DNA from: Auanema rhodensis
Taxonomy: Eukaryota; Animalia; Nematoda
NCBI GenBank assembly: GCA_964057225.1
Contig: OZ059899.1
Location: 10,912,001-10,976,000, forward strand
Direction: 5' to 3'
DNA length: 64,000 nt
Within the stretch, counting starts at the first letter, position 1. Every line of letters begins with the position of its first letter. The position numbers and the translations under genes are program-made. The notes beneath the pieces were generated by a model. The model had not been told where the DNA came from, did no database searches, and saw nothing but the letters and a program-made list of their open reading frames with translations. Positions 1,461 to 62,152 of this stretch are shown one piece after another.

Positions 1461-1488
1461 TACGAAAGTACGAAATAACAAAGCGCTG

Positions 1489-24682: not shown

Positions 24683-24756
24683 TGCCGCCAGCAGGGGTCA
24701 AACCTGCGACCTTGGGCTTATTAGACCCACGCTCTAACCGACTGAGCTATGGCGGC
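24683..24756 (-). pseudogene. tRNA-Ile(AAT) copy with C56>T in the B box
   Basis: ggggtcAaacc at 24700, so GTTCGA becomes GTTTGA. Confidence 0.7.
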
Positions 24757-36700: not shown

Positions 36701-39700
36701 CGACCTTGGGCTTATTAGACCCACGCTCTAACCGACTGAGCTATGGCGGCTACAAAAGTACGAAATAACAAAGCGCTGATTATAGGAAACGTGAATGAAT
36801 GCAGATATTCTCAATTCCGATTCATTAACTAGATCGTGGTCAGCATTTTACAACATTGATAAAATAGAAACTGAGAAAAAAACATCAACAAATGACACTA
36901 TTAACTTGGTTTTTTGAACAGCTTTTTTATATTTCTTTTTTCACTATTAGAGAACTTATATTTATTGCTTTTTCAAAATTTTCCATTTTTAACATTATAC
37001 ATCTTGACTATCACACATTGAGAACAACAGTTGGCAATGTTGGTTGTCACGTCATATTTCATGCAGTTAGATTTTCAGACACATTAATACCTTTAACCAT
37101 TCTTCTTATGAGTTTTGTAACGATAGATCGTAATAGGATATGAATTGCTATAATATGAAAAAATACAAGACATAGTCAACATTGATTTCCCCAAATAGTA
37201 TCATGTTTGCTTGTTATTCAATTAGAACACTTATTTTATGATTGTTTTCTTGAAATATTCTTTTTTTTTTTTAACAAAGTTATGACTGAGATCAAAATTT
37301 GAACTTACTTTTGAACAATTAAACAGAAATTTAAAAAATATTTGCCGCCAGCAGGGGTCGAACCTGCGACCTTGGGCTTATTAGACCCACGCTCTAACCG
37401 ACTGAGCTATGGCGGCTACGAAAGTACGAAATAACAAAGCGCTGATTATAGGAAACGTGAATGAATGCAGATATTCTCAATTCCGATTCATTAACTAGAT
37501 CGTGGTCAGCATTTTACAACATTGATAAAATAGAAACTGAGAAAAAAACATCAACAAATAACACTATTAACTTGGTTTTTTAACAGCTTTTTTATATTTC
37601 TTTTTTCACTATGAGAGAACTTATATTTATTGCTTTTTCAAAATTTTCCATTTTTAACATTATACATCTTGACTATCACACATTGAGAACAACAGTTGGC
37701 AATGTTGGTTGTCACGTCATATTTCATGCAGTTAGATTTTCAGACACATTAATACCTTTGACCATTCTTCTTATGAGTTTTGTAACAATAGATCGTAATA
37801 GGAAATGAATTGCTATAATATGAAAAAATACAAGACATAGTCAACATTGATTTCCAAAAATAGTATCATGTTTGTTTGTTATTCAATTAGAACACTTATT
37901 TTTTGATTGTTTTCTTGAAATATTCTTTTTTTTTCTTTAACAAAGTTATGACTGAGATCAAAATTTGAACTTACTTTTGAACAATTAAACAGAAATTTAA
38001 AAAATATTTGCCGCCAGCAGGGGTCGAACCTGCGACCTTGGGCTTATTAGACCCACGCTCTAACCGACTGAGCTATGGCGGCTACAAAAGTACGAAATAA
38101 CAAAGCGCTGATTATAGGAAACGTGAATGAATGCAGATATTCTCAATTCCGATTCATTAACTAGATCGTGGTCAGCATTTTACAACATTGATAAAATAGA
38201 AACTGAGAAAAAAACATCAACAAATGACACTATTAACTTGGTTTTTTGAACAGCTTTTTTATATTTCTTTTTTCACTATTAGAGAACTTATATTTATTGC
38301 TTTTTCAAAATTTTCCATTTTTAACATTATACATCTTGACTATCACACATTGAGAACAACAGTTGGCAATGTTGGTTGTCACGTCATATTTCATGCAGTT
38401 AGATTTTCAGACACATTAATACCTTTAACCATTCTTCTTATGAGTTTTGTAACGATAGATCGTAATAGGATATGAATTGCTATAATATGAAAAAATACAA
38501 GACATAGTCAACATTGATTTCCCCAAATAGTATCATGTTTGCTTGTTATTCAATTAGAACACTTATTTTATGATTGTTTTCTTGAAATATTCTTTTTTTT
38601 TTTTAACAAAGTTATGACTGAGATCAAAATTTGAACTTACTTTTGAACAATTAAACAGAAATTTAAAAAATATTTGCCGCCAGCAGGGGTCGAACCTGCG
38701 ACCTTGGGCTTATTAGACCCACGCTCTAACCGACTGAGCTATGGCGGCTACGAAAGTACGAAATAACAAAGCGCTGATTATAGGAAACGTGAATGAATGC
38801 AGATATTCTCAATTCCGATTCATTAACTAGATCGTGGTCAGCATTTTACAACATTGATAAAATAGAAACTGAGAAAAAAACATCAACAAATAACACTATT
38901 AACTTGGTTTTTTAACAGCTTTTTTATATTTCTTTTTTCACTATGAGAGAACTTATATTTATTGCTTTTTCAAAATTTTCCATTTTTAACATTATACATC
39001 TTGACTATCACACATTGAGAACAACAGTTGGCAATGTTGGTTGTCACGTCATATTTCATGCAGTTAGATTTTCAGACACATTAATACCTTTGACCATTCT
39101 TCTTATGAGTTTTGTAACAATAGATCGTAATAGGAAATGAATTGCTATAATATGAAAAAATACAAGACATAGTCAACATTGATTTCCAAAAATAGTATCA
39201 TGTTTGCTTGTTATTCAATTAGAACACTTATTTTTTGATTGTTTTCTTGAAATATTCTTTTTTTTTCTTTAACAAAGTTATGACTGAGATCAAAATTTGA
39301 ACTTACTTTTGAACAATTAAACAGAAATTTAAAAAATATTTGCCGCCAGCAGGGGTCGAACCTGCGACCTTGGGCTTATTAGACCCACGCTCTAACCGAC
39401 TGAGCTATGGCGGCTACGAAAGTACGAAATAACAAAGCGCTGATTATAGGAAACGTGAATGAATGCAGATATTCTCAATTCCGATTCATTAACTAGATCG
39501 TGGTCAGCATTTTACAACATTGATAAAATAGAAACTGAGAAAAAAACATCAACAAATGACACTATTAACTTGGTTTTTTAACAGCTTTTTTATATTTCTT
39601 TTTTCACTATGAGAGAACTTATATTTATTGCTTTTTCAAAATTTTCCATTTTTAACATTATACATCTTGACTATCACACATTGAGAACAACAGTTGGCAA

Positions 39701-40005
39701 TGTTGGTTGTCACGTCATATTTCATGCAGTTAGATTTTCAGACACATTAATACCTTTAACCATTCTTCTTATGAGTTTTGTAACGATAGATCGTAATAGG
39801 ATATGAATTGCTATAATATGAAAAAATACAAGACATAGTCAACATTGATTTCCCCAAATAGTATCATGTTTGCTTGTTATTCAATTATAACACTTTTTTT
39901 TTGATTGTTTTCTTGAAATATTCTTTTTTTTCTTTAACAAAGTTATGACTGAGATCAAAATTTGAACTTACTTTTGAACAATTAAACAGAAATTTAAAAA
40001 ATATT

Positions 40006-40079
40006 TGCCGCCAGCAGGGGTCGAACCTGCGACCTTGGGCTTATTAGACCCACGCTCTAACCGACTGAGCTATGGCGGC
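40006..40079 (-). tRNA. tRNA-Ile(AAT), last copy before the LTR element
   Basis: Identical to the consensus copy. Confidence 0.97.
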
Positions 40080-40563
40080 TACGAAAGTACGAAATAACAA
40101 AGCGCTGATTATAGGAAACGTGAATGAATGCAGATATTCTCAATTCCGATTCATTAACTAGATCGTGGTCAGCATTTTACAACATTGATAAAATAGAAAC
40201 TGAGAAAAAAACATCAACAAATAACACTATTAACTTGGTTTTTTAACAGCTTTTTTATATTTCTTTTTTCACTATGAGAGAACTTATATTTATTGCTTTT
40301 TCAAAATTTTCCATTTTTAACATTATACATCTTGACTATCACACATTGAGAACAACAGTTGGCAATGTTGGTTGTCACGTCATATTTCATGCAGTTAGAT
40401 TTTCAGACACATTAATACCTTTGACCATTCTTCTTATGAGTTTTGTAACAATAGATCGTAATAGGAAATGAATTGCTATAATATGAAAAAATACAAGACA
40501 TAGTCAACATTGATTTCCAAAAATAGTATCATGTTTGCTTGTTATTCAATTAGAACACTTATT

Positions 40564-40921
40564 CGTTCCATTCGGATGATCAATGCATTACATTCATATG
40601 ACGAAGCTGTAGCAGGCGGGTTAGAGTCAGAGAATGCGAGACTGAGAGAAGACGACCCGCCCTTTTCCATATTACAACACTTCAGCTTTGCCTCAGGGAC
40701 GATCATGGATGGTTGGTCGTTCTCTCTCTGTTCTCTATTAGTTTAACCTTTACTTAGTTATATGTATCTTATTGTAATCACGTAGATATAATAAACCAAT
40801 CTTTCTCGAGTCTTATGTTTATCCTTATGCTCCATGTTTAACCGCTACATCTGGAATACTACCACGCTCATCTTGTAGACTCCATTGGTCTGTAAGATCG
40901 ACGCGGGAGCATAACGGAACG
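40564..40921 (+). repeat. 5' LTR (358 bp), termini CGTTCC...GGAACG
   Basis: Starts exactly where array sequence stops (cacttatt|cgttcc) and ends directly before the PBS. It has a terminal inverted repeat and AATAAA at 40790-40795. Confidence 0.85.
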
Positions 40922-40934
40922 TGGAGGTTCCACC
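40922..40934 (+). promoter_or_regulatory. Primer-binding site complementary to the tRNA-Gln 3' end
   Basis: TGGAGGTTCCACC is the complement of GGTGGAACCT-CCA, the conserved metazoan tRNA-Gln 3' end (recalled sequence). Confidence 0.85.
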
Positions 40935-42428
40935 TCGAACTTATCACAATTTTTTTTTCCTTCTCTTTAATGTTTGTGTTGTTAATTCATTTTCAAATTT
41001 CTTTCATCTCTCTTTTTCTCATACCATCTACTCTATGTCTTAACACAATACGGAGGGGCCAACAACGTTAAATGGGAACAGAGGCAAGGAATCCTTTTTT
41101 TTTTAAAGAAGGATTATACGTTTCGAGATTATTATTTTCCCGTTTGTTCACAAAAATTCTTTCGTCTGAACCTTTAAATTTCGTATCCTTGCTTATAACA
41201 TCTGAAATGCTCTGTTACCCAACCTTGAAGCTTGATGAGGGCTTTAGGCTGAATTAGTGAACAAATTCACCTAAAGTAATTGTTATTTCGTATTTCCCAC
41301 GCTTTCTCCTTTTTAAGGATTAATTTTGGCTTCAAGGAAAGAATAACTTCGGTTATATCTTTATATTTCGTGGATGAAGTTTGTTTTGCGATCAGGACTA
41401 TTTTATTTGGCGTTACGATTTCGTTCAGACAAATTTTGCTTCTAACATCCTAAATTTATAATCAGTACGCATGAAAAAAATTACACGGGAAACCTCACCA
41501 AAAAGGGAGGATTGTTAATTTATAGATCGCTATAGTCCGAAAAATCCTGTTGAAAAATGTTATCTCGAATTTGAATCATGATTAACACAGGTCGTGTTGG
41601 CTAAAGCATATCGGTTTGGATTTTCTCCCCTTACTGAATGTCACCTTCCTCATACCGTTATTGTTGTTCAGAAGCATAAGACTCACGCATTGAACCTTAT
41701 TCCAACTTTAATACTAGTTCTTGTAATATTTAGCCATTTAACTCTGCTTTTATTTCAAAATTCGATTTCTGATCACGAAATACCTACATTCATCATTGCG
41801 AAACGCTCTTTTGTAAAACTAATATTACGAATCCCATGACTTTTGTTACAACGAAACATGCGAGCTACACCAAATGTATTTGAAAACCAGATTGTAAAGA
41901 AACAAAAATTATTTTTGGTCACAAAAGAGAAATTGGTGCACATTTATTGTTAAACTGCTCTTTTATCAAAAGCATGTTACGAATTACACCATAAGTTTTG
42001 TTGCAAGATGACACACCACATGGCCGAGAAACTAGTGTAACAAAACATAAGTTTAGTCAGCATGAGGAAAATGGTTGCATACAAATCAGTAAAATGTGCT
42101 GTAATTGAACGAATATTACGAATTACACTAAACGTTTTGTAAAATAACAGCTTGGTCACCCCAGATGTTTTGTGAATCAGATTTTCAACTACAGAGAAAA
42201 TACGGAGAGCACCAGAGTCCCGATATCACACAGTAGAAGGCGGATCCATCGCCATTGGCCAAGGCATCGACCTCATTCTCACAAGTTGTCGATACGACAC
42301 CGGTCGCTCTCCAAAGCCTTTCTCATTTTGCCTACATCCTCATCCTTATTCACCGCATTCTTTAACGTCTCAACATCCCACACGTTACCAAGCACTCAAG
42401 GTTTTTTCAAACCAAGAGTTCTAGCAAG

Positions 42429-45400
42429 GTGGCTAAGAGATTCCATTCAGCCGTACCTATAAGTACGCATTTCGATTCCCAAGACTCAGCTCCCTTTACC
42501 AGAAGTCGAGCTCGAGCTCAAGACGTCGCTATATTAGAAGAGGAGCAGAAAGTCGACAAGAAGCCGGATAATTTCCTTATTCCTACTACTGATTCTGTCT
42601 CACCTACTGAACAACTAGGCGACCCGGACTACGTACCTACTATAGAAGAAGAACTATCAATCATTGTGGAGGAACAAACACCGATCACTCCTAAAAAGGT
42701 ACGCTCCTCTAATTCTAATAAAAATAAGAAAAATCAAAACATCAGCGACGCTTCTCTCTCTCTCTCACTAACTGAACCAACCGATTCCCCTTTACTTTCA
42801 AAAACTTCTAGCGCGGGTGGGCTTAGTTCTCTTAGAAACATTGTTACTGATCTTTTTAACCTTTCGCCTAAAGATAAAACTTTCAACACCAAGCGCAAAA
42901 GCAGATATTCATCAGTCCCTAACATTAATATCTCACCAATTCAACCACCTGCACCAAATACCAGTATTCATCAAACTTCTACTCCCATCTTAACAACAAC
43001 AGACTCACTTCCTAAGGCACCCAATAGACCTATTCCATCCACGCAAACAACCCCTATTTTGGAGACCCCACCAATAACAGGTAGAACGATCAAAATACCA
43101 TCTACCCGTACGAATAACATCATGACGGAAGCTGTTTCCTCACTACCTGGGGCAGGGAAAACAACAATCGCGCAAGCCTTACTTTCGCCTTACTGTCCAA
43201 CTTACGACGGCAGTCGTAACTTCCGTGATTTTACGGGTAAATTCAACTTGTTTGCTAATGCCATTGGCCTTGTTATCCCTGAAAGGTTAGCACTTCTTCC
43301 TTTGCTTCTCAAAAATGAAGCAGCAGAAGAAGCTTACAGACAAGTTCCTGAACAACTTAAAACAACTGGTTCGTGGAATGATCTGATTAGAGCACTAACA
43401 TCGAAGCTCTGCCCTGAATATAACCAAGACCCTGCACTTATTAACCTTCAAAACACCACGCAAGGGGAATTGACAATTGATGCATACGCCCAAGCATTAA
43501 GAACAATGGCATTGAGTGCATTTGCATCTGATGACCCACATAAAGATCAAATACTGAGATCAACATTCCTCAGAGGACTTAAAAATTCTCTAAAACCAGC
43601 TGTGATCCGAGCAAAGCCAAAATCCTTCACAGAAGCGATTGAAGCAGCTCGCTGGGAGGAATCGATAGTGAACCAAACAACAGACACGCAATCGATGTTG
43701 GTCAACGCTGTGAACAAAGCACTAGCACCCTTTGCGCGTAATGATGAGAGACGAGATAGCCAAACATTTAATCGCAATTATCAACGCGATAACCAAATGA
43801 TAAGAAATAATCAAAATTATCAAAATAATCAAAATTATCAAAATTATCAAAAAAATAAAAACTTTTCTAATTTCAATAATAATCGAAACCGTTACGGTTC
43901 TTTCGCTAATAATAATCGCCGTACAAATTATAACGAACAAGATAATAGGCAATCGAGTTCTGATTGGCATCAAAGAAATTATAATTTTCGTCATAACAAC
44001 CAACGAGGTAGATTCAATAACAACAACGGACAAAGAAGAGTTCAATTCAAAAATCCAAGAGACAACTCAAGAGGAAGAGATAGAAGCTCAACAAGAATAA
44101 ACTCGGTCACCCTTTCGCCTTTGACGCTCACAGTTATCATGGCAATAACAGCAGCAATATTCTTGCCCTGTGCATCTACATATCAAATCTGTACAAGAGC
44201 AACAGGAGGCGCATTACTTATGCCACCAACAATCAGAAAATGCAGATTAACAGAGAAAAACCATGTGCTACGTACAGAAGTTCATCTGTACACAAGAAAT
44301 CACACAGCACACGAATGGGATGCGTGGCGTTGTTCAGAGGAAGTACACAAGTTATGCGTACGAGACCTGCTATTCCTCCGCGATACGAACAGAACAATAA
44401 ATAGAATACAGCCCATAGGAGAGCGCGAATGCAGACAGGCGATCCGCGATCGCAAGTGGAATAACATAGAACTGCAACGCATTGATAGTATCACCCAAGC
44501 AACTCCGGAGCCCTCCTATGACCCAGCGCGCGCGTTCAACCGCGACGCGTGCGAGGAGCGGTCACGTCTAATATTAGAGCGCGGAGTCATGACCCGTATG
44601 CCTGACGATACAATATTGTCAAACTTAATATTAAACACGGAAGGATGCAATGCACATCATGGTAATTGTGAATCAAGTACATCAATAATAATATGGGACC
44701 CACAAACCACTGCTTCACGTTGTAATTACATCGATATGCATACATATGACGCTATCATTAGTCAAGATACTATTTTAATCCCTAGTACACAATCGGCACT
44801 TATTCTTTCGAGCAAACCAACTCCGAAACCTATTTCTTCTTGCTTCAGGCAGCCAGCGTTCCATACGACATCAGGAAATTATATCATTCTTCCTAAATTT
44901 CCAAACGACAACAATATAACCACCCTTATTGAAAGAGAGTTCAAAAAGCTGCCGTTTAAAAGACCAAAACGTGCAGTCACCGAAGGATGTTCTTTCCCAC
45001 TGGATCAAGATCGGATCAACGAAGTTGAAGATTATGAAACAGTATTGCTTCACGTCTGTCCATATACTTTCCTAAGACCATTAATGAGTAATCCCGGTAT
45101 TACTTCAATTATTCCTATAATCAAAGGAAGACGTTTAGTAGATCCAACATACTCTCTAAAGGCATGGATAACATCACATAAAGAAAAATTCGAATTTTTC
45201 TTCAGAATTCAAATAAATGAACATTCTGTTCGACATTTTCTCAAGCAATACGATTTCAGTGATAAAGAAGAAGCTCTGCTATATTATATAGCACAAAGAG
45301 AATTAGCCATTACTACAAAGGCAGCAATATCATACTTGACATCTGAACAGCTTCTCGAACAAATATCAGATCGTTTGACAGTAATCGAATTCGATGAAAT

Positions 45401-48400
45401 CATAAGGAAGAAAGAAGGTTCATATCGCGAACGAATTGAAAGCATAGCTCTCAATTTAACCAATACACCAGTTATAATTGAAGAAGGACTGACAGTTCCA
45501 TCACGACAAGAAGTCCTACAAACGTTCATACAAATGCCACCAATAAGGAAACGTATACTAACTGACGAGGAAGAGAAGAAAAGCGAATTCATTAAGGCAA
45601 CGATCAATTTACTAAGAGAACTAAAAACCCTCACAACAGTACGATGGAATAAAACTGCAGCATTTATTGATGACAGAAAATTTATAAAATTGCCAGCATC
45701 ACGACAATTCATGCCAAATACAGATAAACTATTTTATGACAGGAAGAATAATTATGGAATACCGATCGGTCCACACCCTAAGCTGATCAAGCCCAGCAAT
45801 CTTTCAAAGAAATTATTATTGGAAATATTTTTACCCCTGCTCAATAATGTAAAAACACCTTATACATCGAGTAGGATAACACAAGAACAACTTCAAATCT
45901 TAATGGCAGAGAAAAATGAAACAAATTTTCGGCAAATCGCAACGCGGACATCCAGCGTCGCGGCAGGCGGCGCGGCTAGCGTCGCTGCAGGCGGCGCGGC
46001 TAGCGGCGCGGTTGTGACACCAGTCCAACCTTTGATCGAACAGAAGGGAACAATCCAATCAGTTACCACAATACAGCCGCATATAACGAACAATCCTCAC
46101 ACAAATGCAACAACCACCACAAGAGCACCATCATGGAGGCAACAGCCATCAACAACGGCGCCTCACACGACCGCTGCGACAACAGCACGCACAACAACAT
46201 CAACCGCTCGTTCGCCAACAACAACAAGAAGCTATGCCATATACAAAGACGCACAGATTCCAAAAATACAAGAGACAACCGAAGCCTCTCCAACATTGAT
46301 TCGAAAAAACCGAGCTTCCTCAACACCATCAGTAGAAACCTCAAATTTAGTGGAAGCAAATGCGAGATACATAGCAACGAAAATTGACTCGGTACAAGAG
46401 TTTCGTCAAAATATATCGAACAAAATAGCCCAAGATCATTTACAGTATGCTACTACAATGATCCAAGAGGAATTGCAGAAACATTTTGAAGAATCATACG
46501 AATCGATTTGCGAGATACAAAATCGGTATCTGGAATTATGGAAATCAATTCTACAAATTGAACCAACAATCGCAATGCGAACAATACTGGGAAGAGAAGA
46601 TATAGCCGCACGGTTTGTAGGCAATGAAATTTTGCATATACATGTATGCCCTACAGTGCTAGAGAAAACCATTTATCACAATCACACCGTAAATGGCACA
46701 TGCTATCTCGAAACCCCAGTCTGGACACAAGACGGACAGTTACTGTTTGCAGCACCCGGATCCAAGGATCTTTTACCTCATGGTAAAGAAATAAGCTGTG
46801 ATCACGTACCAACAGATATCTGGTCTAGCGAAGGTGAATGGAAAGGAATTAATGGGACTGCAGACGTCAATCTTGTATCAATGTGGGACGGACTTCATCA
46901 CGAAAAAATAACACCATTAAAATTCACCGGAGCTCACTTATACACTAATTTATCGTCTCGTGTATACTCAATGACCACAGCCATAGCTTACGGTGCGAGT
47001 TTAGCATCGATTCGTCAGAATCACGTTCTTCACACAATTCACAATGATCCAAAGATATCAGCTACATTCAGTGTACTAAAGAAAAGTAGCGACTACATAT
47101 CGAAAGCTCAAGAATTCACCAAGAGCACATGGAAGTCATTCATCGATACAATTGCAGGAACGATTGAGCGAACACTAATAACGATCGGTGCAATTACATT
47201 ATTTACCATCATACTCTTTGTGATAGGTTTCATTGTAAAGATCTATTTCTTCAAACCAGTAGGCATACCAGTTATGCATATTGCACTCAAAGATCACGAC
47301 AGTGATCTACCAACATACGAAGAAACTTTGGAATTAGTTAGTCATCCGGATCAACCGATTCCAAGACACATAATGAAACAATACTATCCATCAATGCTCA
47401 CATTCATACCAATCGCACTACCATTAGTTTGCTCGATTTCCAAAAAGAAAGATCAAGCACTACCACTTCTATGGATGACTGTTAATGATAGACTGATCCT
47501 AACTTTATGGGACTCAGGTTCGTCCGTCAGTTACATAAGAATATCGACACTACACTACTTAGCTTTGAATGACTTTGTTAAGAAGAATACATTAAGAGCA
47601 ACAACAGCGAACGGATCAGAATTTGTATTCATTGGTACTATCGACTTAACCGTCGAAATAGCCGGTTACGAAATCGACCATACATTCTTCATATCAGACG
47701 ACAAAGACTGTCCATCGCCAGCGTTGATTGGATTAGATTTCATGAAAACACTTGACTGTCAAAACATTGGCATGAAACTAAGACCATACAAAAGAACACT
47801 GGAAATTGGAAATCATGTAGTACCTTTGGCTAGCGGAATTAACGGGGATATTAACAGGATATCAAAAACTGTTAATTTGATAACCTTGGAGCCGCGGAGT
47901 CTACTTCCTCGACAAGTTTTTAATTTCCAAGTCCAATTAGAGAACCCAATCGGAGAAGACTTAATCGCTATGATTAAACCAAACGACAATACTCCTCTCT
48001 CACCTCGATACGACACAGCATTTCGCGATGTTAACTCCATCAATATCCAATTCCGGAACAATTCTAAAGAATTCATAGAAATACCGGCCGGCACTGTGAT
48101 TGCAGAAGCCGAAATAGGATCTATACCGGACTATGAAATCTTCTCAACAGAACAACAGTACGACTATATTCCACCAGAAGCAGACTGGGAAGGCAAATTA
48201 CCTCACTTCCCTGGTGATTTCATGAAAGAACTTGACCTAAAAGAGGCTGATCTTACGCAACGACAAAAAGACGAACTACGAAACATCATTCGTCAACGTA
48301 AGAAGGCATTCCTCAATGAAGATAAAAAGATAGGATTGTTCAAAGGACCAGTAGAACACAAGATACCACTACGAACGGATATGGATATGCCAAAGCCACG

Positions 48401-51158
48401 AATTTCACGTATACCTCTCGGGAAACAAGAAGAGGTAGAAAGACAAGTCCAAGAAATGCTCGAGCAAGGGATAATAGAACGATCGACATCTTTGTTCAAC
48501 AGCCCTGTCGTTCTCGTTAAGAAAAAAGACGAAACATTCCGTTTCGTTACGGATTTCCGAGCCTTAAATAACGTTACAAGAAAACAAACATATGTGATTC
48601 CTAACATCTCTGATATCATTGACTTAGCGGCTGGATCACAATACTTTTCTAATTTTGATCTTGTTTCTGGCTTTTTCCAAATACCATTATTGAAGAAGGA
48701 TAGACCACTCACATCCTTTACCACCAATAGTGGGACTTATCAATACAGGAGAATGCCTATGGGATTATGTGGTGCGCCACATACCTTTCAAACAGCCGTG
48801 AGATATCTCCAAAGTAAATGTAAATGCCGACTATTTGTCTATTTGGACGATTTACTAGTCATATCAGACAGCGCAGAACAACACCTCGAAGACATCAAAG
48901 AAGTATTACTCGCTGTAGAAAGACTAGGATTTAAGATTAAACTCAAGAAATGTTCATTTGCAAGACCAGAAGTGAAATTTCTCGGACTCATTGTCGGAAG
49001 AGACGGAGTTAAGCCCGATCAACAGAAAGTTTCCGCCATCCGCGATTACCCTGCTCCTCAAACACCCACAGGAGTAAGAGCATTCTTAGGAATGGTCGGA
49101 TTCTTTAGAAAATTTATTAAAGATTTTGCACATATAGCAAGTCCGCTGTATGACCTTACTAAGCTAGACGCAGACTTCAATTGGACTAGCGAATGTCAAC
49201 GTTCACTAGATAAGCTAAAGGAACGACTAATCGAAGCACCGGTACTGAAACCACCACGATCAGACCGAACTTTCATCATTGAAAGTGATGGCAGCAACAT
49301 CGCCATAGGCGCAGTATTACTGCAGCCCGAAGATCCAAACGAACCATTCAAGAACTTACATCCAATTGCTTTCGCAAGTAGGAAATTAGTAAAAGCAGAA
49401 CGTAACTATGCTCCCATAGAGATAGAAGCCTTAGGCTTAGTTTACGCTCTAGCACAGTTTCGAACATACATACTTGGATCACATTCAATTTGCATCACCG
49501 ATCATCGCCCATTGACAAGCTTACTAACTAGAAGAGACCTATTTGGAAGACTAGCAAAGTTCCAATTGGTCATACAGGAATACGATATTGAGATCAAATA
49601 TCGAGAAGGCAGATTAAACAAAGTCTGTGACGCACTCTCTAGATACATTGGAGATGAAGCTAACGATCCAAAGACGTCGAACAAGAAACAAAAGACGAAT
49701 TCGAAAGAGAAAATTGAGACACAACAAGTAAATGTTGTGAAGTTACCAGAATTCAGCTCAATCCAACAAAATACTCCTTGGATCAAGAGAACAATAGCTG
49801 AGATTGAATACAGAACGAAGAAAAATATGATTCAAAATGATCGTTATTGTGTTATAAACAACTTACTCTACACAAAACCAAGCGTCAAAAGACCTCATCC
49901 AGCGTTAATATTGCCATCGGATAGTGATATAATTAACAAAATCATTGAAGAATTTCATGAAGACCCAACAATCGGGGCGCATCAAGGAATCAACAAAACA
50001 AAAGAAGCCATATTACGAAGATTTTCCTGGACTAACATGCAGAACGACATAGCAAAATACGTAAAACAGTGCATCAAATGTGCACAACGAAAGAAAGATC
50101 CTCATGCTATGACCGTACAACCAATGGGTCAATTTAACATACCAACAAAACCATTTGAGAGAATACATATGGATATCATGGGACCATTCCCAACATCAAA
50201 AAGGAACAACAGCTATGTCCTCACAATACAAGACTCTTTCTCCAAATGGGCTACAACTATCGCCATACCAACAATTGTTAGTGAAGTTGTCATTGATAGA
50301 TTCCTCAGAAACTTTGTATATGTCTATGGACCACCGAATCGCTTAATAACAGACCGCGGTTCCAACTTCCTATCAAGGAAATTTGAAGACATGTGCGAAA
50401 AACTCGGTATCAAACATGAATCAACACTCCCACATCAGAAGAATTCCAATGGACAAGTAGAAAGACTTCATAGAACGTTAGAAGAAGGACTAACACATTA
50501 TCTCAACGAAGATGTCACTGATTGGGACATGTTTTTGCCAAAAATTACCTTTGCATTGAACACCACAACGCATGCAACCACAGGAATATCACCATACGTT
50601 GTACTATTCGGGAAAGAAAGCCGTTTGAGATTGGATAAAGATTTATACCCCGAAACAACTGAACCAAAGGAAATTTCAAAGGAGATTGAAAATATTGAGA
50701 AAATCCGAAGCAAACAGAAAACAATCATTCAAGAAAATTTGGAAAAGCATCAAGAATTAGCAAAAAAGAAACATGATGCTCGATTACGCACTCACGAAAG
50801 AGATATACAAGAAGGAGACTGCGTTATGTTAGCTGTGAAAATGCACAAGCCAGGACAAAAGCTTCGGAAAGCTTATGATGGACCATTTGAAGTTATAAAT
50901 GTGAAGGGAAACATGGTTCAAATCAAAAACCTTTTCGGAAAGATTCAAGACGTTCACAAGGACAATCTCAAATTATTTAATCGAGAAACAGATGACGGAA
51001 TCCCACATAAGCCCAGTACACGTACAGACAGCTCAGACGATGACAGCGATATCGAAATCATAGAGGTTATCAACGGAAACAACAACGAGGAAGACTCTTA
51101 TGACGAACCAGAAGACCTTTCGGATACAAATTGGCTACCATCAAGAAAAAACCATTAA
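42429..51158 (+). CDS. Single Gag-Env-Pol polyprotein: capsid, N/Q/R-rich NC, signal peptide, class III-like glycoprotein, TM, aspartic protease, RT, RNase H, integrase
   Basis: Capsid motifs PTYDGSRNF and QGELTIDAY; hydrophobic segment 44106-44180; RPKR 44961-44972; TM 47175-47252; LWDSGS with D at 47511; YLDD 48840-48851; RNase H ESDGS and NYAPIEIEAL; IN HHCC 49956-50081; D(50172), D(50352)-35-E(50460); GPF motif. The true start is uncertain: the frame opens at 42366 and the first ATG is at 43122. Confidence 0.93.
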   Translation: MAKRFHSAVPISTHFDSQDSAPFTRSRARAQDVAILEEEQKVDKKPDNFLIPTTDSVSPTEQLGDPDYVPTIEEELSIIVEEQTPITPKKVRSSNSNKNKKNQNISDASLSLSLTEPTDSPLLSKTSSAGGLSSLRNIVTDLFNLSPKDKTFNTKRKSRYSSVPNINISPIQPPAPNTSIHQTSTPILTTTDSLPKAPNRPIPSTQTTPILETPPITGRTIKIPSTRTNNIMTEAVSSLPGAGKTTIAQALLSPYCPTYDGSRNFRDFTGKFNLFANAIGLVIPERLALLPLLLKNEAAEEAYRQVPEQLKTTGSWNDLIRALTSKLCPEYNQDPALINLQNTTQGELTIDAYAQALRTMALSAFASDDPHKDQILRSTFLRGLKNSLKPAVIRAKPKSFTEAIEAARWEESIVNQTTDTQSMLVNAVNKALAPFARNDERRDSQTFNRNYQRDNQMIRNNQNYQNNQNYQNYQKNKNFSNFNNNRNRYGSFANNNRRTNYNEQDNRQSSSDWHQRNYNFRHNNQRGRFNNNNGQRRVQFKNPRDNSRGRDRSSTRINSVTLSPLTLTVIMAITAAIFLPCASTYQICTRATGGALLMPPTIRKCRLTEKNHVLRTEVHLYTRNHTAHEWDAWRCSEEVHKLCVRDLLFLRDTNRTINRIQPIGERECRQAIRDRKWNNIELQRIDSITQATPEPSYDPARAFNRDACEERSRLILERGVMTRMPDDTILSNLILNTEGCNAHHGNCESSTSIIIWDPQTTASRCNYIDMHTYDAIISQDTILIPSTQSALILSSKPTPKPISSCFRQPAFHTTSGNYIILPKFPNDNNITTLIEREFKKLPFKRPKRAVTEGCSFPLDQDRINEVEDYETVLLHVCPYTFLRPLMSNPGITSIIPIIKGRRLVDPTYSLKAWITSHKEKFEFFFRIQINEHSVRHFLKQYDFSDKEEALLYYIAQRELAITTKAAISYLTSEQLLEQISDRLTVIEFDEIIRKKEGSYRERIESIALNLTNTPVIIEEGLTVPSRQEVLQTFIQMPPIRKRILTDEEEKKSEFIKATINLLRELKTLTTVRWNKTAAFIDDRKFIKLPASRQFMPNTDKLFYDRKNNYGIPIGPHPKLIKPSNLSKKLLLEIFLPLLNNVKTPYTSSRITQEQLQILMAEKNETNFRQIATRTSSVAAGGAASVAAGGAASGAVVTPVQPLIEQKGTIQSVTTIQPHITNNPHTNATTTTRAPSWRQQPSTTAPHTTAATTARTTTSTARSPTTTRSYAIYKDAQIPKIQETTEASPTLIRKNRASSTPSVETSNLVEANARYIATKIDSVQEFRQNISNKIAQDHLQYATTMIQEELQKHFEESYESICEIQNRYLELWKSILQIEPTIAMRTILGREDIAARFVGNEILHIHVCPTVLEKTIYHNHTVNGTCYLETPVWTQDGQLLFAAPGSKDLLPHGKEISCDHVPTDIWSSEGEWKGINGTADVNLVSMWDGLHHEKITPLKFTGAHLYTNLSSRVYSMTTAIAYGASLASIRQNHVLHTIHNDPKISATFSVLKKSSDYISKAQEFTKSTWKSFIDTIAGTIERTLITIGAITLFTIILFVIGFIVKIYFFKPVGIPVMHIALKDHDSDLPTYEETLELVSHPDQPIPRHIMKQYYPSMLTFIPIALPLVCSISKKKDQALPLLWMTVNDRLILTLWDSGSSVSYIRISTLHYLALNDFVKKNTLRATTANGSEFVFIGTIDLTVEIAGYEIDHTFFISDDKDCPSPALIGLDFMKTLDCQNIGMKLRPYKRTLEIGNHVVPLASGINGDINRISKTVNLITLEPRSLLPRQVFNFQVQLENPIGEDLIAMIKPNDNTPLSPRYDTAFRDVNSINIQFRNNSKEFIEIPAGTVIAEAEIGSIPDYEIFSTEQQYDYIPPEADWEGKLPHFPGDFMKELDLKEADLTQRQKDELRNIIRQRKKAFLNEDKKIGLFKGPVEHKIPLRTDMDMPKPRISRIPLGKQEEVERQVQEMLEQGIIERSTSLFNSPVVLVKKKDETFRFVTDFRALNNVTRKQTYVIPNISDIIDLAAGSQYFSNFDLVSGFFQIPLLKKDRPLTSFTTNSGTYQYRRMPMGLCGAPHTFQTAVRYLQSKCKCRLFVYLDDLLVISDSAEQHLEDIKEVLLAVERLGFKIKLKKCSFARPEVKFLGLIVGRDGVKPDQQKVSAIRDYPAPQTPTGVRAFLGMVGFFRKFIKDFAHIASPLYDLTKLDADFNWTSECQRSLDKLKERLIEAPVLKPPRSDRTFIIESDGSNIAIGAVLLQPEDPNEPFKNLHPIAFASRKLVKAERNYAPIEIEALGLVYALAQFRTYILGSHSICITDHRPLTSLLTRRDLFGRLAKFQLVIQEYDIEIKYREGRLNKVCDALSRYIGDEANDPKTSNKKQKTNSKEKIETQQVNVVKLPEFSSIQQNTPWIKRTIAEIEYRTKKNMIQNDRYCVINNLLYTKPSVKRPHPALILPSDSDIINKIIEEFHEDPTIGAHQGINKTKEAILRRFSWTNMQNDIAKYVKQCIKCAQRKKDPHAMTVQPMGQFNIPTKPFERIHMDIMGPFPTSKRNNSYVLTIQDSFSKWATTIAIPTIVSEVVIDRFLRNFVYVYGPPNRLITDRGSNFLSRKFEDMCEKLGIKHESTLPHQKNSNGQVERLHRTLEEGLTHYLNEDVTDWDMFLPKITFALNTTTHATTGISPYVVLFGKESRLRLDKDLYPETTEPKEISKEIENIEKIRSKQKTIIQENLEKHQELAKKKHDARLRTHERDIQEGDCVMLAVKMHKPGQKLRKAYDGPFEVINVKGNMVQIKNLFGKIQDVHKDNLKLFNRETDDGIPHKPSTRTDSSDDDSDIEIIEVINGNNNEEDSYDEPEDLSDTNWLPSRKNH
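44106..47252 (+). other. Env-like glycoprotein region inside the polyprotein (about aa 560-1608)
   Basis: Signal-like segment, Cys-rich ectodomain with NxS/T sequons (NHT, NRT, NIT, NLT, NKT, NGT, NLS), a furin site, a Thr-rich mucin-like stretch, a gB-like C-terminal half (LQY..., ICEIQN, IEPTIAMRTILGREDIAARFVG, CYLETPV) and a C-terminal TM helix. Confidence 0.8.
45954..46011 (+). repeat. GC-rich 24-bp in-frame tandem duplication (SVAAGGAA x2 plus a partial copy)
   Basis: agcgtcgcggcaggcggcgcggct agcgtcgctgcaggcggcgcggct agcggcgcgg. Confidence 0.9.
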
Positions 51159-51840
51159 CTCATGAGATATTATTGTAAATTGTTTTGTAATAACTTTCTT
51201 TAAAGTAATACTAGAACACAAATTTTGTAACGACTCCTCTAAAACAAGTCACTCTTAAGTCAAAAAGTAAACTAGAGCATAATGAACACGGGAAATGTGA
51301 GAAGATAATTCTTTTATCATATAGTTCGAACCTTCCTAATTTCAACTAACTTCCCCATACTAGATGAGATGAAAAATGAAAGACATAGTTTGCAACAATA
51401 TCTGAGCAACAGTCTTCACTTGAGTAATCAATGACTCAATTTGGAAGTTATTTGGTATTACGCAAAACTTTTCTTTTTTTTTCTAAACTCACACAAATTG
51501 AAACAAACAACCGAGCTCTAGCAAAAAAAAAATAGTTAACTTTTTATCTACACTTGTTGGAGCGCTATGCTTAAAAACTTTTTTTTTTATTTTATAAGCA
51601 CGTTCGCCAATAAAACATAGTCTAGTATTCGTTAAAGAGGGTTAAAACTTTCATAATTTGGTTAAAAAATTTTTTTAATTCTTTTCAGATACTGATGTTT
51701 TATATTGTATTATGTTCATATTATAAGAATTTTACGTAAAATATTGTATTGTAACATGTACTTTAATACACACATTAACCCTTCTGCTACAGTTAATCAA
51801 GTCAAAACTTTTGATTGTCGCGAGGACGCGACATAAACTC

Positions 51841-51849
51841 GAAAAAGGG
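51841..51849 (+). promoter_or_regulatory. Polypurine tract
   Basis: GAAAAAGGG lies 2 nt before the second LTR and is preceded by the hairpin TGTCGCG-AGGA-CGCGACA. Confidence 0.7.
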
Positions 51850-51851
51850 CA

Positions 51852-52209
51852 CGTTCCATTCGGATGATCAATGCATTACATTCATATGACGAAGCTGTAG
51901 CAGGCGGGTTAGAGTCAGAGAATGCGAGACTGAGAGAAGACGACCCGCCCTTTTCCATATTACAACACTTCAGCTTTGCCTCAGGGACGATCATGGATGG
52001 TTGGTCGTTCTCTCTCTGTTCTCTATTAGTTTAACCTTTACTTAGTTATATGTATCTTATTGTAATCACGTAGATATAATAAACCAATCTTTCTCGAGTC
52101 TTATGTTTATCCTTATGCTCCATGTTTAACCGCTACATCTGGAATACTACCACGCTCATCTTGTAGACTCCATTGGTCTGTAAGATCGACGCGGGAGCAT
52201 AACGGAACG
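51852..52209 (+). repeat. Second LTR: 3' LTR of copy 1 and 5' LTR of copy 2
   Basis: Identical by eye to 40564-40921 (offset 11288) and again followed by the PBS at 52210-52222. Confidence 0.88.
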
Positions 52210-55200
52210 TGGAGGTTCCACCTCGAACTTATCACAATTTTTTTTTCCTTCTCTTTAATGTTTGTGTTGTTAATTCATTTTCAAATTTCTTTCATCTCTC
52301 TTTTTCTCATACCATCTACTCTATGTCTTAACACAATACGGAGGGGCCAACAACGTTAAATGGGAACAGAGGCAAGGAATCCTTTTTTTTTTAAAGAAGG
52401 ATTATACGTTTCGAGATTATTATTTTCCCGTTTGTTCACAAAAATTCTTTCGTCTGAACCTTTAAATTTCGTATCCTTGCTTATAACATCTGAAATGCTC
52501 TGTTACCCAACCTTGAAGCTTGATGAGGGCTTTAGGCTGAATTAGTGAACAAATTCACCTAAAGTAATTGTTATTTCGTATTTCCCACGCTTTCTCCTTT
52601 TTAAGGATTAATTTTGGCTTCAAGGAAAGAATAACTTCGGTTATATCTTTATATTTCGTGGATGAAGTTTGTTTTGCGATCAGGACTATTTTATTTGGCG
52701 TTACGATTTCGTTCAGACAAATTTTGCTTCTAACATCCTAAATTTATAATCAGTACGCATGAAAAAAATTACACGGGAAACCTCACCAAAAAGGGAGGAT
52801 TGTTAATTTATAGATCGCTATAGTCCGAAAAATCCTGTTGAAAAATGTTATCTCGAATTTGAATCATGATTAACACAGGTCGTGTTGGCTAAAGCATATC
52901 GGTTTGGATTTTCTCCCCTTACTGAATGTCACCTTCCTCATACCGTTATTGTTGTTCAGAAGCATAAGACTCACGCATTGAACCTTATTCCAACTTTAAT
53001 ACTAGTTCTTGTAATATTTAGCCATTTAACTCTGCTTTTATTTCAAAATTCGATTTCTGATCACGAAATACCTACATTCATCATTGCGAAACGCTCTTTT
53101 GTAAAACTAATATTACGAATCCCATGACTTTTGTTACAACGAAACATGCGAGCTACACCAAATGTATTTGAAAACCAGATTGTAAAGAAACAAAAATTAT
53201 TTTTGGTCACAAAAGAGAAATTGGTGCACATTTATTGTTAAACTGCTCTTTTATCAAAAGCATGTTACGAATTACACCATAAGTTTTGTTGCAAGATGAC
53301 ACACCACATGGCCGAGAAACTAGTGTAACAAAACATAAGTTTAGTCAGCATGAGGAAAATGGTTGCATACAAATCAGTAAAATGTGCTGTAATTGAACGA
53401 ATATTACGAATTACACTAAACGTTTTGTAAAATAACAGCTTGGTCACCCCAGATGTTTTGTGAATCAGATTTTCAACTACAGAGAAAATACGGAGAGCAC
53501 CAGAGTCCCGATATCACACAGTAGAAGGCGGATCCATCGCCATTGGCCAAGGCATCGACCTCATTCTCACAAGTTGTCGATACGACACCGGTCGCTCTCC
53601 AAAGCCTTTCTCATTTTGCCTACATCCTCATCCTTATTCACCGCATTCTTTAACGTCTCAACATCCCACACGTTACCAAGCACTCAAGGTTTTTTCAAAC
53701 CAAGAGTTCTAGCAAGGTGGCTAAGAGATTCCATTCAGCCGTACCTATAAGTACGCATTTCGATTCCCAAGACTCAGCTCCCTTTACCAGAAGTCGAGCT
53801 CGAGCTCAAGACGTCGCTATATTAGAAGAGGAGCAGAAAGTCGACAAGAAGCCGGATAATTTCCTTATTCCTACTACTGATTCTGTCTCACCTACTGAAC
53901 AACTAGGCGACCCGGACTACGTACCTACTATAGAAGAAGAACTATCAATCATTGTGGAGGAACAAACACCGATCACTCCTAAAAAGGTACGCTCCTCTAA
54001 TTCTAATAAAAATAAGAAAAATCAAAACATCAGCGACGCTTCTCTCTCTCTCTCACTAACTGAACCAACCGATTCCCCTTTACTTTCAAAAACTTCTAGC
54101 GCGGGTGGGCTTAGTTCTCTTAGAAACATTGTTACTGATCTTTTTAACCTTTCGCCTAAAGATAAAACTTTCAACACCAAGCGCAAAAGCAGATATTCAT
54201 CAGTCCCTAACATTAATATCTCACCAATTCAACCACCTGCACCAAATACCAGTATTCATCAAACTTCTACTCCCATCTTAACAACAACAGACTCACTTCC
54301 TAAGGCACCCAATAGACCTATTCCATCCACGCAAACAACCCCTATTTTGGAGACCCCACCAATAACAGGTAGAACGATCAAAATACCATCTACCCGTACG
54401 AATAACATCATGACGGAAGCTGTTTCCTCACTACCTGGGGCAGGGAAAACAACAATCGCGCAAGCCTTACTTTCGCCTTACTGTCCAACTTACGACGGCA
54501 GTCGTAACTTCCGTGATTTTACGGGTAAATTCAACTTGTTTGCTAATGCCATTGGCCTTGTTATCCCTGAAAGGTTAGCACTTCTTCCTTTGCTTCTCAA
54601 AAATGAAGCAGCAGAAGAAGCTTACAGACAAGTTCCTGAACAACTTAAAACAACTGGTTCGTGGAATGATCTGATTAGAGCACTAACATCGAAGCTCTGC
54701 CCTGAATATAACCAAGACCCTGCACTTATTAACCTTCAAAACACCACGCAAGGGGAATTGACAATTGATGCATACGCCCAAGCATTAAGAACAATGGCAT
54801 TGAGTGCATTTGCATCTGATGACCCACATAAAGATCAAATACTGAGATCAACATTCCTCAGAGGACTTAAAAATTCTCTAAAACCAGCTGTGATCCGAGC
54901 AAAGCCAAAATCCTTCACAGAAGCGATTGAAGCAGCTCGCTGGGAGGAATCGATAGTGAACCAAACAACAGACACGCAATCGATGTTGGTCAACGCTGTG
55001 AACAAAGCACTAGCACCCTTTGCGCGTAATGATGAGAGACGAGATAGCCAAACATTTAATCGCAATTATCAACGCGATAACCAAATGATAAGAAATAATC
55101 AAAATTATCAAAATAATCAAAATTATCAAAATTATCAAAAAAATAAAAACTTTTCTAATTTCAATAATAATCGAAACCGTTACGGTTCTTTCGCTAATAA

Positions 55201-56607
55201 TAATCGCCGTACAAATTATAACGAACAAGATAATAGGCAATCGAGTTCTGATTGGCATCAAAGAAATTATAATTTTCGTCATAACAACCAACGAGGTAGA
55301 TTCAATAACAACAACGGACAAAGAAGAGTTCAATTCAAAAATCCAAGAGACAACTCAAGAGGAAGAGATAGAAGCTCAACAAGAATAAACTCGGTCACCC
55401 TTTCGCCTTTGACGCTCACAGTTATCATGGCAATAACAGCAGCAATATTCTTGCCCTGTGCATCTACATATCAAATCTGTACAAGAGCAACAGGAGGCGC
55501 ATTACTTATGCCACCAACAATCAGAAAATGCAGATTAACAGAGAAAAACCATGTGCTACGTACAGAAGTTCATCTGTACACAAGAAATCACACAGCACAC
55601 GAATGGGATGCGTGGCGTTGTTCAGAGGAAGTACACAAGTTATGCGTACGAGACCTGCTATTCCTCCGCGATACGAACAGAACAATAAATAGAATACAGC
55701 CCATAGGAGAGCGCGAATGCAGACAGGCGATCCGCGATCGCAAGTGGAATAACATAGAACTGCAACGCATTGATAGTATCACCCAAGCAACTCCGGAGCC
55801 CTCCTATGACCCAGCGCGCGCGTTCAACCGCGACGCGTGCGAGGAGCGGTCACGTCTAATATTAGAGCGCGGAGTCATGACCCGTATGCCTGACGATACA
55901 ATATTGTCAAACTTAATATTAAACACGGAAGGATGCAATGCACATCATGGTAATTGTGAATCAAGTACATCAATAATAATATGGGACCCACAAACCACTG
56001 CTTCACGTTGTAATTACATCGATATGCATACATATGACGCTATCATTAGTCAAGATACTATTTTAATCCCTAGTACACAATCGGCACTTATTCTTTCGAG
56101 CAAACCAACTCCGAAACCTATTTCTTCTTGCTTCAGGCAGCCAGCGTTCCATACGACATCAGGAAATTATATCATTCTTCCTAAATTTCCAAACGACAAC
56201 AATATAACCACCCTTATTGAAAGAGAGTTCAAAAAGCTGCCGTTTAAAAGACCAAAACGTGCAGTCACCGAAGGATGTTCTTTCCCACTGGATCAAGATC
56301 GGATCAACGAAGTTGAAGATTATGAAACAGTATTGCTTCACGTCTGTCCATATACTTTCCTAAGACCATTAATGAGTAATCCCGGTATTACTTCAATTAT
56401 TCCTATAATCAAAGGAAGACGTTTAGTAGATCCAACATACTCTCTAAAGGCATGGATAACATCACATAAAGAAAAATTCGAATTTTTCTTCAGAATTCAA
56501 ATAAATGAACATTCTGTTCGACATTTTCTCAAGCAATACGATTTCAGTGATAAAGAAGAAGCTCTGCTATATTATATAGCACAAAGAGAATTAGCCATTA
56601 CTACAAA
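52210..56607 (+). mobile_element. Second, tandem, 3'-truncated copy of the internal region of the Gypsy element
   Basis: Repeats 40922-45319 at offset 11288 and breaks within env at ...ccattactacaaa. Confidence 0.95.
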
Positions 56608-56653
56608 CTACATTCCATTTTTAACATTATACATCTTGACTATCACACATTGA
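53717..56653 (+). pseudogene. Truncated Gag-Env ORF running out into array sequence
   Basis: The translation is identical to the first ~963 aa of the full ORF; the tail NYIPFLTLYILTITH comes from junction filler and array sequence. Confidence 0.88.
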
Positions 56654-56974
56654 GAACAACAGTTGGCAATGTTGGTTGTCACGTCATATTTCATGCAGTT
56701 AGATTTTCAGACACATTAATACCTTTAACCATTCTTCTTATGAGTTTTGTAACGATAGATCGTAATAGGATATGAATTGCTATAATATGAAAAAATACAA
56801 GACATAGTCAACATTGATTTCCCCAAATAGTATCATGTTTGCTTGTTATTCAATTATAACACTTTTTTTTTGATTGTTTTCTTGAAATATTCTTTTTTTT
56901 CTTTAACAAAGTTATGACTGAGATCAAAATTTGAACTTACTTTTGAACAATTAAACAGAAATTTAAAAAATATT

Positions 56975-57048
56975 TGCCGCCAGCAGGGGTCGAACCTGCG
57001 ACCTTGGGCTTATTAGACCCACGCTCTAACCGACTGAGCTATGGCGGC
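56975..57048 (-). tRNA. tRNA-Ile(AAT), first copy right of the LTR element
   Basis: Identical to the consensus copy. Confidence 0.97.
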
Positions 57049-61637: not shown

Positions 61638-61711
61638 TGCCGCCAGCAGGGCTCGAACCTGCGACCTTGGGCTTATTAGACCCACGTTCTAACCGACTGA
61701 GCTATGGCGGC
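61638..61711 (-). tRNA. tRNA-Ile(AAT) variant with two substitutions (T-loop change and D-stem mismatch)
   Basis: gggCtcgaac at 61652 and cacgTtcta at 61687. Confidence 0.8.
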
Positions 61712-62149: not shown

Positions 62150-62152
62150 AAT

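What the first reader, a model, noticed from the sequence alone, without database searches (positions are those of the whole stretch)
42429..51158. Gypsy-type element with env embedded in frame between gag and pol (Gag-Env-Pol single polyprotein)
Seen: one uninterrupted frame holds capsid and NC, then a ~25-aa hydrophobic segment (VTLSPLTLTVIMAITAAIFLPCAST), a ~1000-aa Cys- and sequon-rich region, a second TM (LITIGAITLFTIILFVIGFIVKIYFF), then PR, RT, RH and IN. Established: in retroviruses, errantiviruses and env-bearing BEL/Pao elements env lies 3' of integrase, and Pol is normally packaged as a Gag-Pol fusion. Inference: the polyprotein threads the ER membrane twice, as flavivirus and alphavirus polyproteins do. 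Signal peptidase would separate membrane-anchored Gag from an Env-Pol fusion, so Pol would be recruited to particles through the Env cytoplasmic tail at about 1:1:1 stoichiometry unless splicing intervenes. This is a candidate infectious nematode retrovirus-like lineage; I cannot check whether relatives have already been described.
Basis: partly seen in the sequence, partly recalled or inferred. Interest (0 to 1): 0.95.

Follow-up and report, generated by a model that had tools for sequence, protein, structure and literature searches.

The report
Nematode Gag-Env-Pol retrovirus-like element
This is an intact virus-like jumping gene, likely of a roundworm, whose capsid, herpes-gB-like membrane-fusion protein and copying enzymes are written in one reading frame and are likely separated by the cell's signal peptidase and the element's own protease; the gene order is unusual but already published for nematode elements.

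Summary
Observation confirmed, novelty not. One stop-free frame (42366-51158, 2930 codons) holds capsid, a signal-peptide-like segment, a class III (herpes gB/mononegavirus-type) fusogen, a transmembrane anchor, then PR-RT-RH-IN, between identical 358-bp LTRs with a tRNA-Gln primer site. Public DNA contigs bridge both env junctions. GAG-ENV-POL is published: in-frame in planarian Burro (PMC6431247), and in nematodes (PMC13524379, citing Sacco 2022). This scan noted the planarian form earlier. The element groups with Auanema and Caenorhabditis relatives of the same layout. The two-pass membrane topology is well supported by conservation. Possibly new details: a 320-aa helical domain with no fold match inserted after the furin site, CG...CG LTR ends, a 252-codon Met-less open N-terminus, and residence in a tRNA-Ile array. 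Expression and infectivity untested.

The parts
40564..40921 (+). 5' LTR, 358 bp, ends CGTTCC...GGAACG (6-bp inverted termini, CG...CG rather than TG...CA); AATAAA at 40790
   Evidence: public contigs start at 40564 and leave at 40921
40922..40933 (+). Primer-binding site, complement of the tRNA-Gln 3' end listed for Clat_errantivirus_4 and Ctro_errantivirus_1
   Evidence: against supplement rows
42366..43121 (+). 252 stop-free, Met-free codons in frame with the polyprotein; S/T/P-rich; start unknown (GTG at 42429 is a candidate)
   Evidence: 0 of 20000 base shuffles stop-free (mean 12.6 stops); no homolog among 270 held proteins
43122..44105 (+). Gag from first ATG: capsid domain (43299-43685) and R/K/N/Q-rich NC-like stretch without zinc knuckle
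44106..44180 (+). Internal signal-peptide-like segment (aa 581-605), preceded by the INSV motif
44181..44960 (+). Env N-terminal beta-rich, Cys-rich part (gB domains I/II-like)
44961..44972 (+). Furin-type site RPKR (aa 866-869)
   Evidence: cleavage inferred
44979..45935 (+). Inserted all-helical domain (aa 872-1190), no Pfam or fold match
45936..46355 (+). S/T/P-rich (40%) disordered mucin-like linker; carries an in-frame 24-nt repeat absent from three public runs
   Evidence: table 4
46356..47177 (+). Env C-terminal part: long central helix and gB domain IV-like region
47178..47252 (+). Transmembrane anchor (aa 1605-1629)
47253..47453 (+). Predicted cytosolic Env tail / spacer before protease
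47454..51158 (+). Pol: PR (DSG aa 1716), RT (YLDD aa 2159), RNase H, integrase (H2C2, rve, weak SH3); stop at 51156-51158
51841..51849 (+). Polypurine tract, followed by CA and the 3' LTR
51852..52209 (+). 3' LTR, identical to the 5' LTR
52210..56607 (+). Second, truncated tandem copy (PBS, leader, gag, 5' env) sharing the middle LTR, 100% identical, cut inside the env insert and joined to the array through 5 filler bases
1387..61711 (-). Host context: ~666-bp tandem array, one tRNA-Ile(AAT) gene per unit (67 genes), interrupted by the element

Best explanation
This is an intact, recently inserted Ty3/gypsy element with a gB-type envelope gene in frame between gag and pol, likely of a rhabditid nematode, whose single polyprotein is predicted to cross the ER membrane twice and is likely cut apart by signal peptidase, furin and the element's own protease. 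Shown: gene order, LTR/PBS/PPT anatomy, intact catalytic motifs, gB-like fold of the model. Inferred steps: (1) Gag is made in the cytosol; the segment at aa 581-605 acts as an internal signal sequence and signal peptidase cuts on its luminal side; (2) the ectodomain is glycosylated, trimerises and is furin-cut at RPKR; (3) the anchor at aa 1605-1629 stops transfer, leaving Pol cytosolic on the Env tail; (4) Gag and Pol are first co-tethered to the same membrane, which replaces both a matrix domain and a Gag-Pol frameshift; crowding lets PR dimerise and cut at [VI]-N-x-[VIL]-type sites at the CA end, in front of the signal peptide, in the Env tail and between enzymes; (5) translation is equimolar but only part of the Pol is packaged, the excess being degraded or left out. 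Enveloped particles likely move the element between cells of one animal (soma to germline), as in Drosophila errantiviruses.
For: Single frame and domains. Env profile hits herpes gB (best E 4.6e-15) and rhabdovirus G; AF2 model pLDDT 72.6 matches gB by Foldseek (E 2.7e-11) and VIA-align (prefusion EBV gB Z 13.1, rmsd 5.7, 378 aligned). Hydrophobic segment between gag and env in 34 of 34 proteins examined versus 42 of 2229 control windows in Pol; TM before PR in 38 of 39, with 74 K/R in the 10 residues after it against 32 in the 8 before (38 proteins). Motif [VI]N.[VIL]: 20 of 34 within 40 aa before the signal segment (shuffle mean 1.1), 25 of 37 tails (3.3), 19 of 34 CA ends (2.0), 11 of 23 RH/IN linkers (2.4); 1 of 33 inside RT and 0 of 36 inside the ectodomain. 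Env precedes Pol in 57 of 60 held proteins with both; 13 have gag<env<RT<IN in one chain. RT-RH tree: 12-row clade (SH-like 99) all env-before-PR. Volume arithmetic: at most 124-393 Pol at 100% fill for inner radii 17-25 nm, against 540 Gag in a Ty3 T=9 shell (recalled).
Against: No SignalP/DeepTMHMM was available; only hydropathy. The protease motif was chosen by eye from these same sequences, relatives are not independent, enrichment after PR is weak (10 of 31, mean 5.0; 13 of 1000 shuffles reach it), it is not enriched at RH/IN of env-less relatives (7 of 71, mean 5.1), and the window's own Env tail lacks the exact motif. Many relatives are eukaryotic gene models that may hide introns or frameshifts. 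No expression, protein or particle data. Host is inferred from relatives only.
Confidence: 0.62

Rival explanations
1. One reading: Gag stays anchored by the signal segment, Pol stays fused to the Env tail until after budding, and particles hold Gag, Env and Pol at about 1:1:1.
For: One frame with no stop or frameshift; both membrane segments conserved; no consensus splice donor found in 43100-47800. Transient co-tethering is part of my model too.
Against: Candidate protease sites before the signal segment and in the tail across the family; equimolar Pol does not fit a Ty3-sized shell (capsid size recalled).
Confidence: 0.13
2. Stoichiometry is set at the RNA level: spliced or prematurely polyadenylated RNAs give Gag alone, Gag-Pol or Env, and the full polyprotein is a minor product.
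For: C. elegans Cer1, another single-polyprotein nematode gypsy element, makes a spliced product (PMC10309623, passages). The Met-less 252-codon N-terminus may need an upstream exon. An AATAAA lies at 44096 at the Gag end.
Against: No GTRAG-type donor matched in 43100-47800 and no TTTCAG acceptor in frame near PR; six AATAAA in an A-rich 8.8-kb ORF is unremarkable.
Confidence: 0.18
3. The envelope is vestigial or used only inside the cell; the element transposes intracellularly.
For: Furin site and fusion activity untested; PMC13524379 (section 9) states that entry mechanism and transmission are unknown for gB-type elements.
Against: Env sits inside the only frame leading to Pol, keeps cysteines and both membrane segments across relatives at 20-48% identity, and folds like prefusion gB. 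In-frame position alone would keep the frame open but not the cysteines.
Confidence: 0.07

Closest known systems
Nematode HSV/gB-type GAG-ENV-POL errantiviruses (Chary and Hayashi, eLife 2026, PMC13524379; read sections 5 part 1, 6 part 1, 9 part 1, 14, word-search passages, 36 Nematoda rows of supplement 1)
   Same: Gene order, gB-type Env flanked by signal peptide and TM, LTR size (358 bp versus 173-470 bp), PBS directly after the LTR, tRNA-Gln primer identical to two Caenorhabditis elements. Their genome table lists ENV-POL hits in two Auanema assemblies.
   Different: No Auanema element is among the 36 listed. The main text has no occurrence of 'polyprotein', 'single ORF', 'in-frame', 'splic': topology, processing and stoichiometry are not treated there. 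I saw no mention of the inserted domain or CG ends in the parts read.
NERV, nematode endogenous retroviruses (Sacco et al. 2022, J Gen Virol 103:1739; not held, seen only as cited in PMC13524379; abstract recalled)
   Same: Cited as nematode ERVs with env and pol flipped; recalled as a continuous gag-env-pro-pol ORF with RNA-virus-like glycoprotein.
   Different: Recalled accessory ORFs (small protein, helicase) have no counterpart over 62 aa here. I could not check what that paper says about topology or inserts.
Planarian Burro elements (Arkhipova and Yushenova 2019, PMC6431247, passages)
   Same: [quoted passage not shown]
   Different: Far larger, CCHC knuckles, BCL2/BIR/ubiquitin-like domains; different host clade.
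Herpesvirus gB / mononegavirus class III fusogens (PF00606, PF24664)
   Same: Fold, central helix, furin site between domain II and the central helix.
   Different: About 460 extra residues at that position; cytosolic tail continues into a protease.
Closest proteins: P0002 and P0007 (named Auanema sp. JU1783), P0006 (C. auriculariae), P0009 (C. remanei)
   Same: Same fused order; Env 48% (P0002), RT-RH 65% (P0007).
   Different: Insert length and content vary; P0008 and P0009 have spacers under 80 aa.

Membership tests
HSV/gB-type GAG-ENV-POL Ty3/gypsy errantivirus (Chary and Hayashi) | Ty3/gypsy Pol in the order PR-RT-RH-IN, uninterrupted | tested here: met
   GyDB profiles not available, tree among gypsy-type hits
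HSV/gB-type GAG-ENV-POL Ty3/gypsy errantivirus (Chary and Hayashi) | gB-like Env ectodomain | tested here: met
HSV/gB-type GAG-ENV-POL Ty3/gypsy errantivirus (Chary and Hayashi) | Env between Gag and Pol | tested here: met
HSV/gB-type GAG-ENV-POL Ty3/gypsy errantivirus (Chary and Hayashi) | Ectodomain flanked by signal peptide (or TM) and TM | tested here: met
   hydropathy and family conservation only; no dedicated predictor
HSV/gB-type GAG-ENV-POL Ty3/gypsy errantivirus (Chary and Hayashi) | Near-identical LTRs 5-14 kb apart with tRNA PBS | tested here: met
   identical 358-bp LTRs 11,288 bp apart; tRNA-Gln PBS
HSV/gB-type GAG-ENV-POL Ty3/gypsy errantivirus (Chary and Hayashi) | Multiple intact copies (typical, not required) | tested here: inconclusive
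   no genome held; two other 3' LTR flanks and variant copies in public contigs
NERV (Sacco 2022; features recalled) | Continuous gag-env-pro-pol ORF | tested here: met
NERV (Sacco 2022; features recalled) | RT groups with the named NERV sequences | not testable with these tools
   paper and its sequences not held; window groups with Caenorhabditis/Auanema/Diploscapter env-before-PR proteins
NERV (Sacco 2022; features recalled) | Host in Chromadorea | tested here: inconclusive
   inferred from nearest named relatives; source of the window not determined
BEL/Pao env elements (Atlas, Tas, Anakin) | Env 3' of integrase; BEL-type Gag/Pol | tested here: not met
   env is 5' of PR; Gag is Ty3-type
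Infectious retrovirus-like agent | Enveloped particles that enter new cells | not testable with these tools
   no particle or expression data

The most novel reading that the evidence does not exclude
These elements process one membrane-threaded polyprotein like a flavivirus, with a single recurring protease motif releasing Gag and Pol from their membrane tethers, and this sub-lineage has bolted a helical domain of undescribed fold plus a mucin-like stalk into a hypervariable slot behind the furin site of its gB-like fusogen as its receptor-binding or shielding module, supplying what gD/gH/gL do for herpes gB; its integrase also joins CG ends and favours tRNA genes, which would be Ty3-like Pol III targeting in an animal.
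Probability: 0.2. Interest if true: 0.68.

Novelty: new member of a known kind. Interest (0 to 1): 0.33.

Why it matters
The gene order itself is known, so the headline claim is not new. The copy is still useful: it is intact, young and probably from a culturable free-living nematode group, and how Gag-Env-Pol elements set stoichiometry, package Pol and enter cells is not addressed in the papers I could read. The conserved candidate cleavage motif, the variable insert slot in Env, the CG LTR ends and the tRNA association give concrete, testable handles on those open questions.

Tried and rejected
No whole genome held, so copy number and target-site duplications were not measured. Sacco 2022 not held; phrase searches found only PMC13524379 citing it (one search gave unrelated papers). 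No RNA holder listed for the ORF; the one guessed RNA run laid (X13) gave a 239-nt piece in integrase at depth 2.4 and pieces of related leaders: no conclusion on expression or splicing. No related loci in metagenome or viral contigs. Insert domain: no Pfam hit under E 0.007, no Foldseek match in PDB or BFVD, best VIA-align Z 3.3 of 48,161 chains, ESM Atlas best 0.85 to an unnamed cluster; absence of a match does not show a new fold. Trimer prediction of the insert gave no verdict. A late domain in the Env tail: LPxY/PPxY occurs only in the window and P0002 (2 of 37, chance level); P[ST]AP occurs in 5 of 37 tails (shuffle mean 0.16) but not in the window, so left as a lead. A first guess that the LTR ends at 40849 (TG...CA) was dropped: PBS, PPT and contig ends fix it at 40564-40921. 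Thirteen variants from public contigs were too few for a selection test. The maximum-likelihood tree did not finish; FastTree used. Five tree rows labelled 'noenv' (P0026, P0031, P0034, P0041, P0060) carry PF24664 (before PR in the two checked) and form a separate clade. Search for CG-ended LTRs or tRNA-targeting nematode LTR elements in print listed nothing specific; only listings were seen.

Full report
Observation. One frame on the plus strand is open from 42366 to the stop at 51158, 2930 codons. Pfam places Ty3-type capsid at aa 312-440, Monjiviricetes_fusion and Glycoprotein_B at aa 1356-1630, then protease, RT, RNase H and integrase. Catalytic motifs DSG and YLDD are intact, and the RNase H and integrase acidic motifs are visible in the translation. 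Contigs from public DNA runs bridge gag-env and env-pol, so the fusion is genuine.

Anatomy. The element has identical 358-bp LTRs at 40564-40921 and 51852-52209. Contigs in four runs start at 40564 or leave at 40921, confirming the limits. The ends read CG...CG. The 12 bases after the LTR are the complement of the tRNA-Gln 3' end listed for two Caenorhabditis elements in supplement 1 of PMC13524379. A polypurine tract precedes the 3' LTR. A second copy follows in tandem, identical for 4756 bp and cut at 56607. The whole lies in an array of 666-bp units with one tRNA-Ile gene each, which also holds a LINE fragment and a BEL/Pao element.

The envelope. A 74-sequence alignment finds herpes gB at E 4.6e-15 and rhabdovirus-type glycoproteins at about 1e-5. 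The AlphaFold model (pLDDT 72.6, pTM 0.50) matches gB by Foldseek and by VIA-align, best prefusion EBV gB at Z 13.1 with 378 residues aligned at rmsd 5.7. It is a class III fusogen. Between the furin-type site RPKR (aa 866-869) and the central helix lie about 460 extra residues: a helical domain (aa 872-1190; model pLDDT 75.6, pTM 0.73) and an S/T/P-rich disordered linker. Among 86 held proteins over 600 aa with both env halves, this spacer ranges from about zero to 495 with median 43; the window's is the longest. The domain aligns with nine other proteins, and its first ~70-residue module is also detected in seven more, including C. auriculariae, C. japonica and C. nigoni proteins. It has no assignable family or fold (see Tried and rejected). 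A role in receptor binding or shielding is inference from position only.

Relatives. The nearest Env is P0002, named Auanema sp. JU1783, 48% identical with the same fused order. A Pol search returns Auanema, Caenorhabditis and Diploscapter polyproteins that also carry PF24664. Of 60 held proteins with both env and pol hits, 57 have env first; 13 have gag, env, RT and IN in one chain, though eukaryotic gene models may hide introns. In a FastTree of 127 RT-RH stretches the window sits in a 12-row clade (support 99) of such proteins, beside P0007. Other env-before-PR proteins fall in separate clades, as PMC13524379 reports. The host is therefore likely a rhabditid nematode; I did not determine the source.

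Mechanism. A signal-peptide-like segment separates gag from env in 34 of 34 proteins that passed the filter (gag hit before an env hit starting near the first cysteine; window included), against 42 of 2229 control windows; a TM segment precedes PR in 38 of 39, followed by basic residues. That supports two membrane passes with Gag and Pol cytosolic. A [VI]-N-x-[VIL] motif is enriched before the signal segment (20 of 34), in the Env tail (25 of 37 after dropping one near-duplicate and one without TM), at the CA end (19 of 34) and at RH/IN (11 of 23), and nearly absent inside RT (1 of 33) and the ectodomain (0 of 36). Its position at domain boundaries makes it a likely site for the element's protease. 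Against: it was picked post hoc, relatives share ancestry, the signal after PR is weak (10 of 31), and the window's own tail lacks an exact match although it has the motif at aa 446, 578, 1836 and 2455. If right, Gag and Pol are tethered only transiently. Equimolar packaging is unlikely on volume grounds: 124-393 Pol copies at full packing for inner radii of 17-25 nm versus 540 Gag in a Ty3 shell (recalled). Excess Pol is likely degraded, as recalled for the single-ORF element Tf1, or RNA processing intervenes; I found no consensus donor in 43100-47800, but have no RNA data. The 252 Met-free codons before the first ATG are open beyond chance (0 of 20000 shuffles), so the true start is unresolved.

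What is known. [quoted passage not shown] PMC13524379 (supplement rows in 25, 29, 30, 101) reports that nematode, bryozoan and flatworm elements carry gB-type env in the order GAG-ENV-POL, lists 36 nematode elements, and cites Sacco et al. 2022 for the nematode group; I recall that paper's abstract describing a continuous gag-env-pro-pol ORF but could not read it. The eLife main text does not discuss polyprotein processing. Its figures and the bioRxiv supplements were not visible and may bear on the insert and LTR ends.

Verdict. A real, intact, young member of a published kind. Residual interest lies in the processing map, the insert domain, the CG ends and a possible tRNA preference resting on one flank. 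Interest 0.33.

Noticed in passing
window 1387-61711: Tandem array of ~666-bp units, each with one tRNA-Ile(AAT) gene (67 in the window). A preprint on Auanema rhodense (10.64898/2026.08.27.747507, passages) reports 19,554 tRNA loci and tRNA arrays among germline-restricted repeats; whether this window belongs to such DNA was not determined.
   Followed up: partly
window 40564-40921, 51852-52209: LTR ends are CG...CG. With the CA after the PPT and the TG opening the PBS they form an 8-bp inverted repeat whose outer two bases are absent at the left host junction, as expected if integrase trims two bases behind CG instead of CA.
   Followed up: partly
public contig of run X1 at LTR end 40921: Another insertion's flank begins 5 bases before a tRNA-like 5' arm with an A box; the other flank seen (X4, X6) is AT-rich. 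The window's copy lies 484 bp upstream of one tRNA start, so no fixed distance is shown.
   Followed up: partly
window 40896-40945: Many high-depth short contigs share only the LTR end plus PBS, pointing to abundant related families with the same terminus.
   Followed up: no
window 42366-43121: 252 in-frame codons without stop or Met before the first ATG; likely translated from a non-AUG start or a spliced leader, possibly giving two Gag forms.
   Followed up: partly
window 52210-56612: Truncated tandem second copy, 100% identical over 4756 bp with the LTR, ending with a 5-base filler that repeats adjacent bases (end-joining-like scar); array phase shifts from 557 to 303, so no target-site duplication can be read. 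Real or assembly duplication not settled.
   Followed up: partly
window 43477-50519: DNA contigs of runs X1 and X2 join these places: internally deleted copies exist in DNA.
   Followed up: no
window 61803-64000: 5' part of a BEL/Pao element (TG-start LTR, DUF1759 Gag with zinc knuckles) inserted in the same array about 90 bp upstream of a tRNA start.
   Followed up: partly
window 66-1153 (minus): 5'-truncated non-LTR retrotransposon RT fragment in the array, flanked by a duplicated stretch of the unit.
   Followed up: partly
P0026, P0031, P0034, P0041, P0060: A separate clade of env-before-PR polyproteins with strong PF24664; P0041 has an Ig domain after integrase.
   Followed up: no
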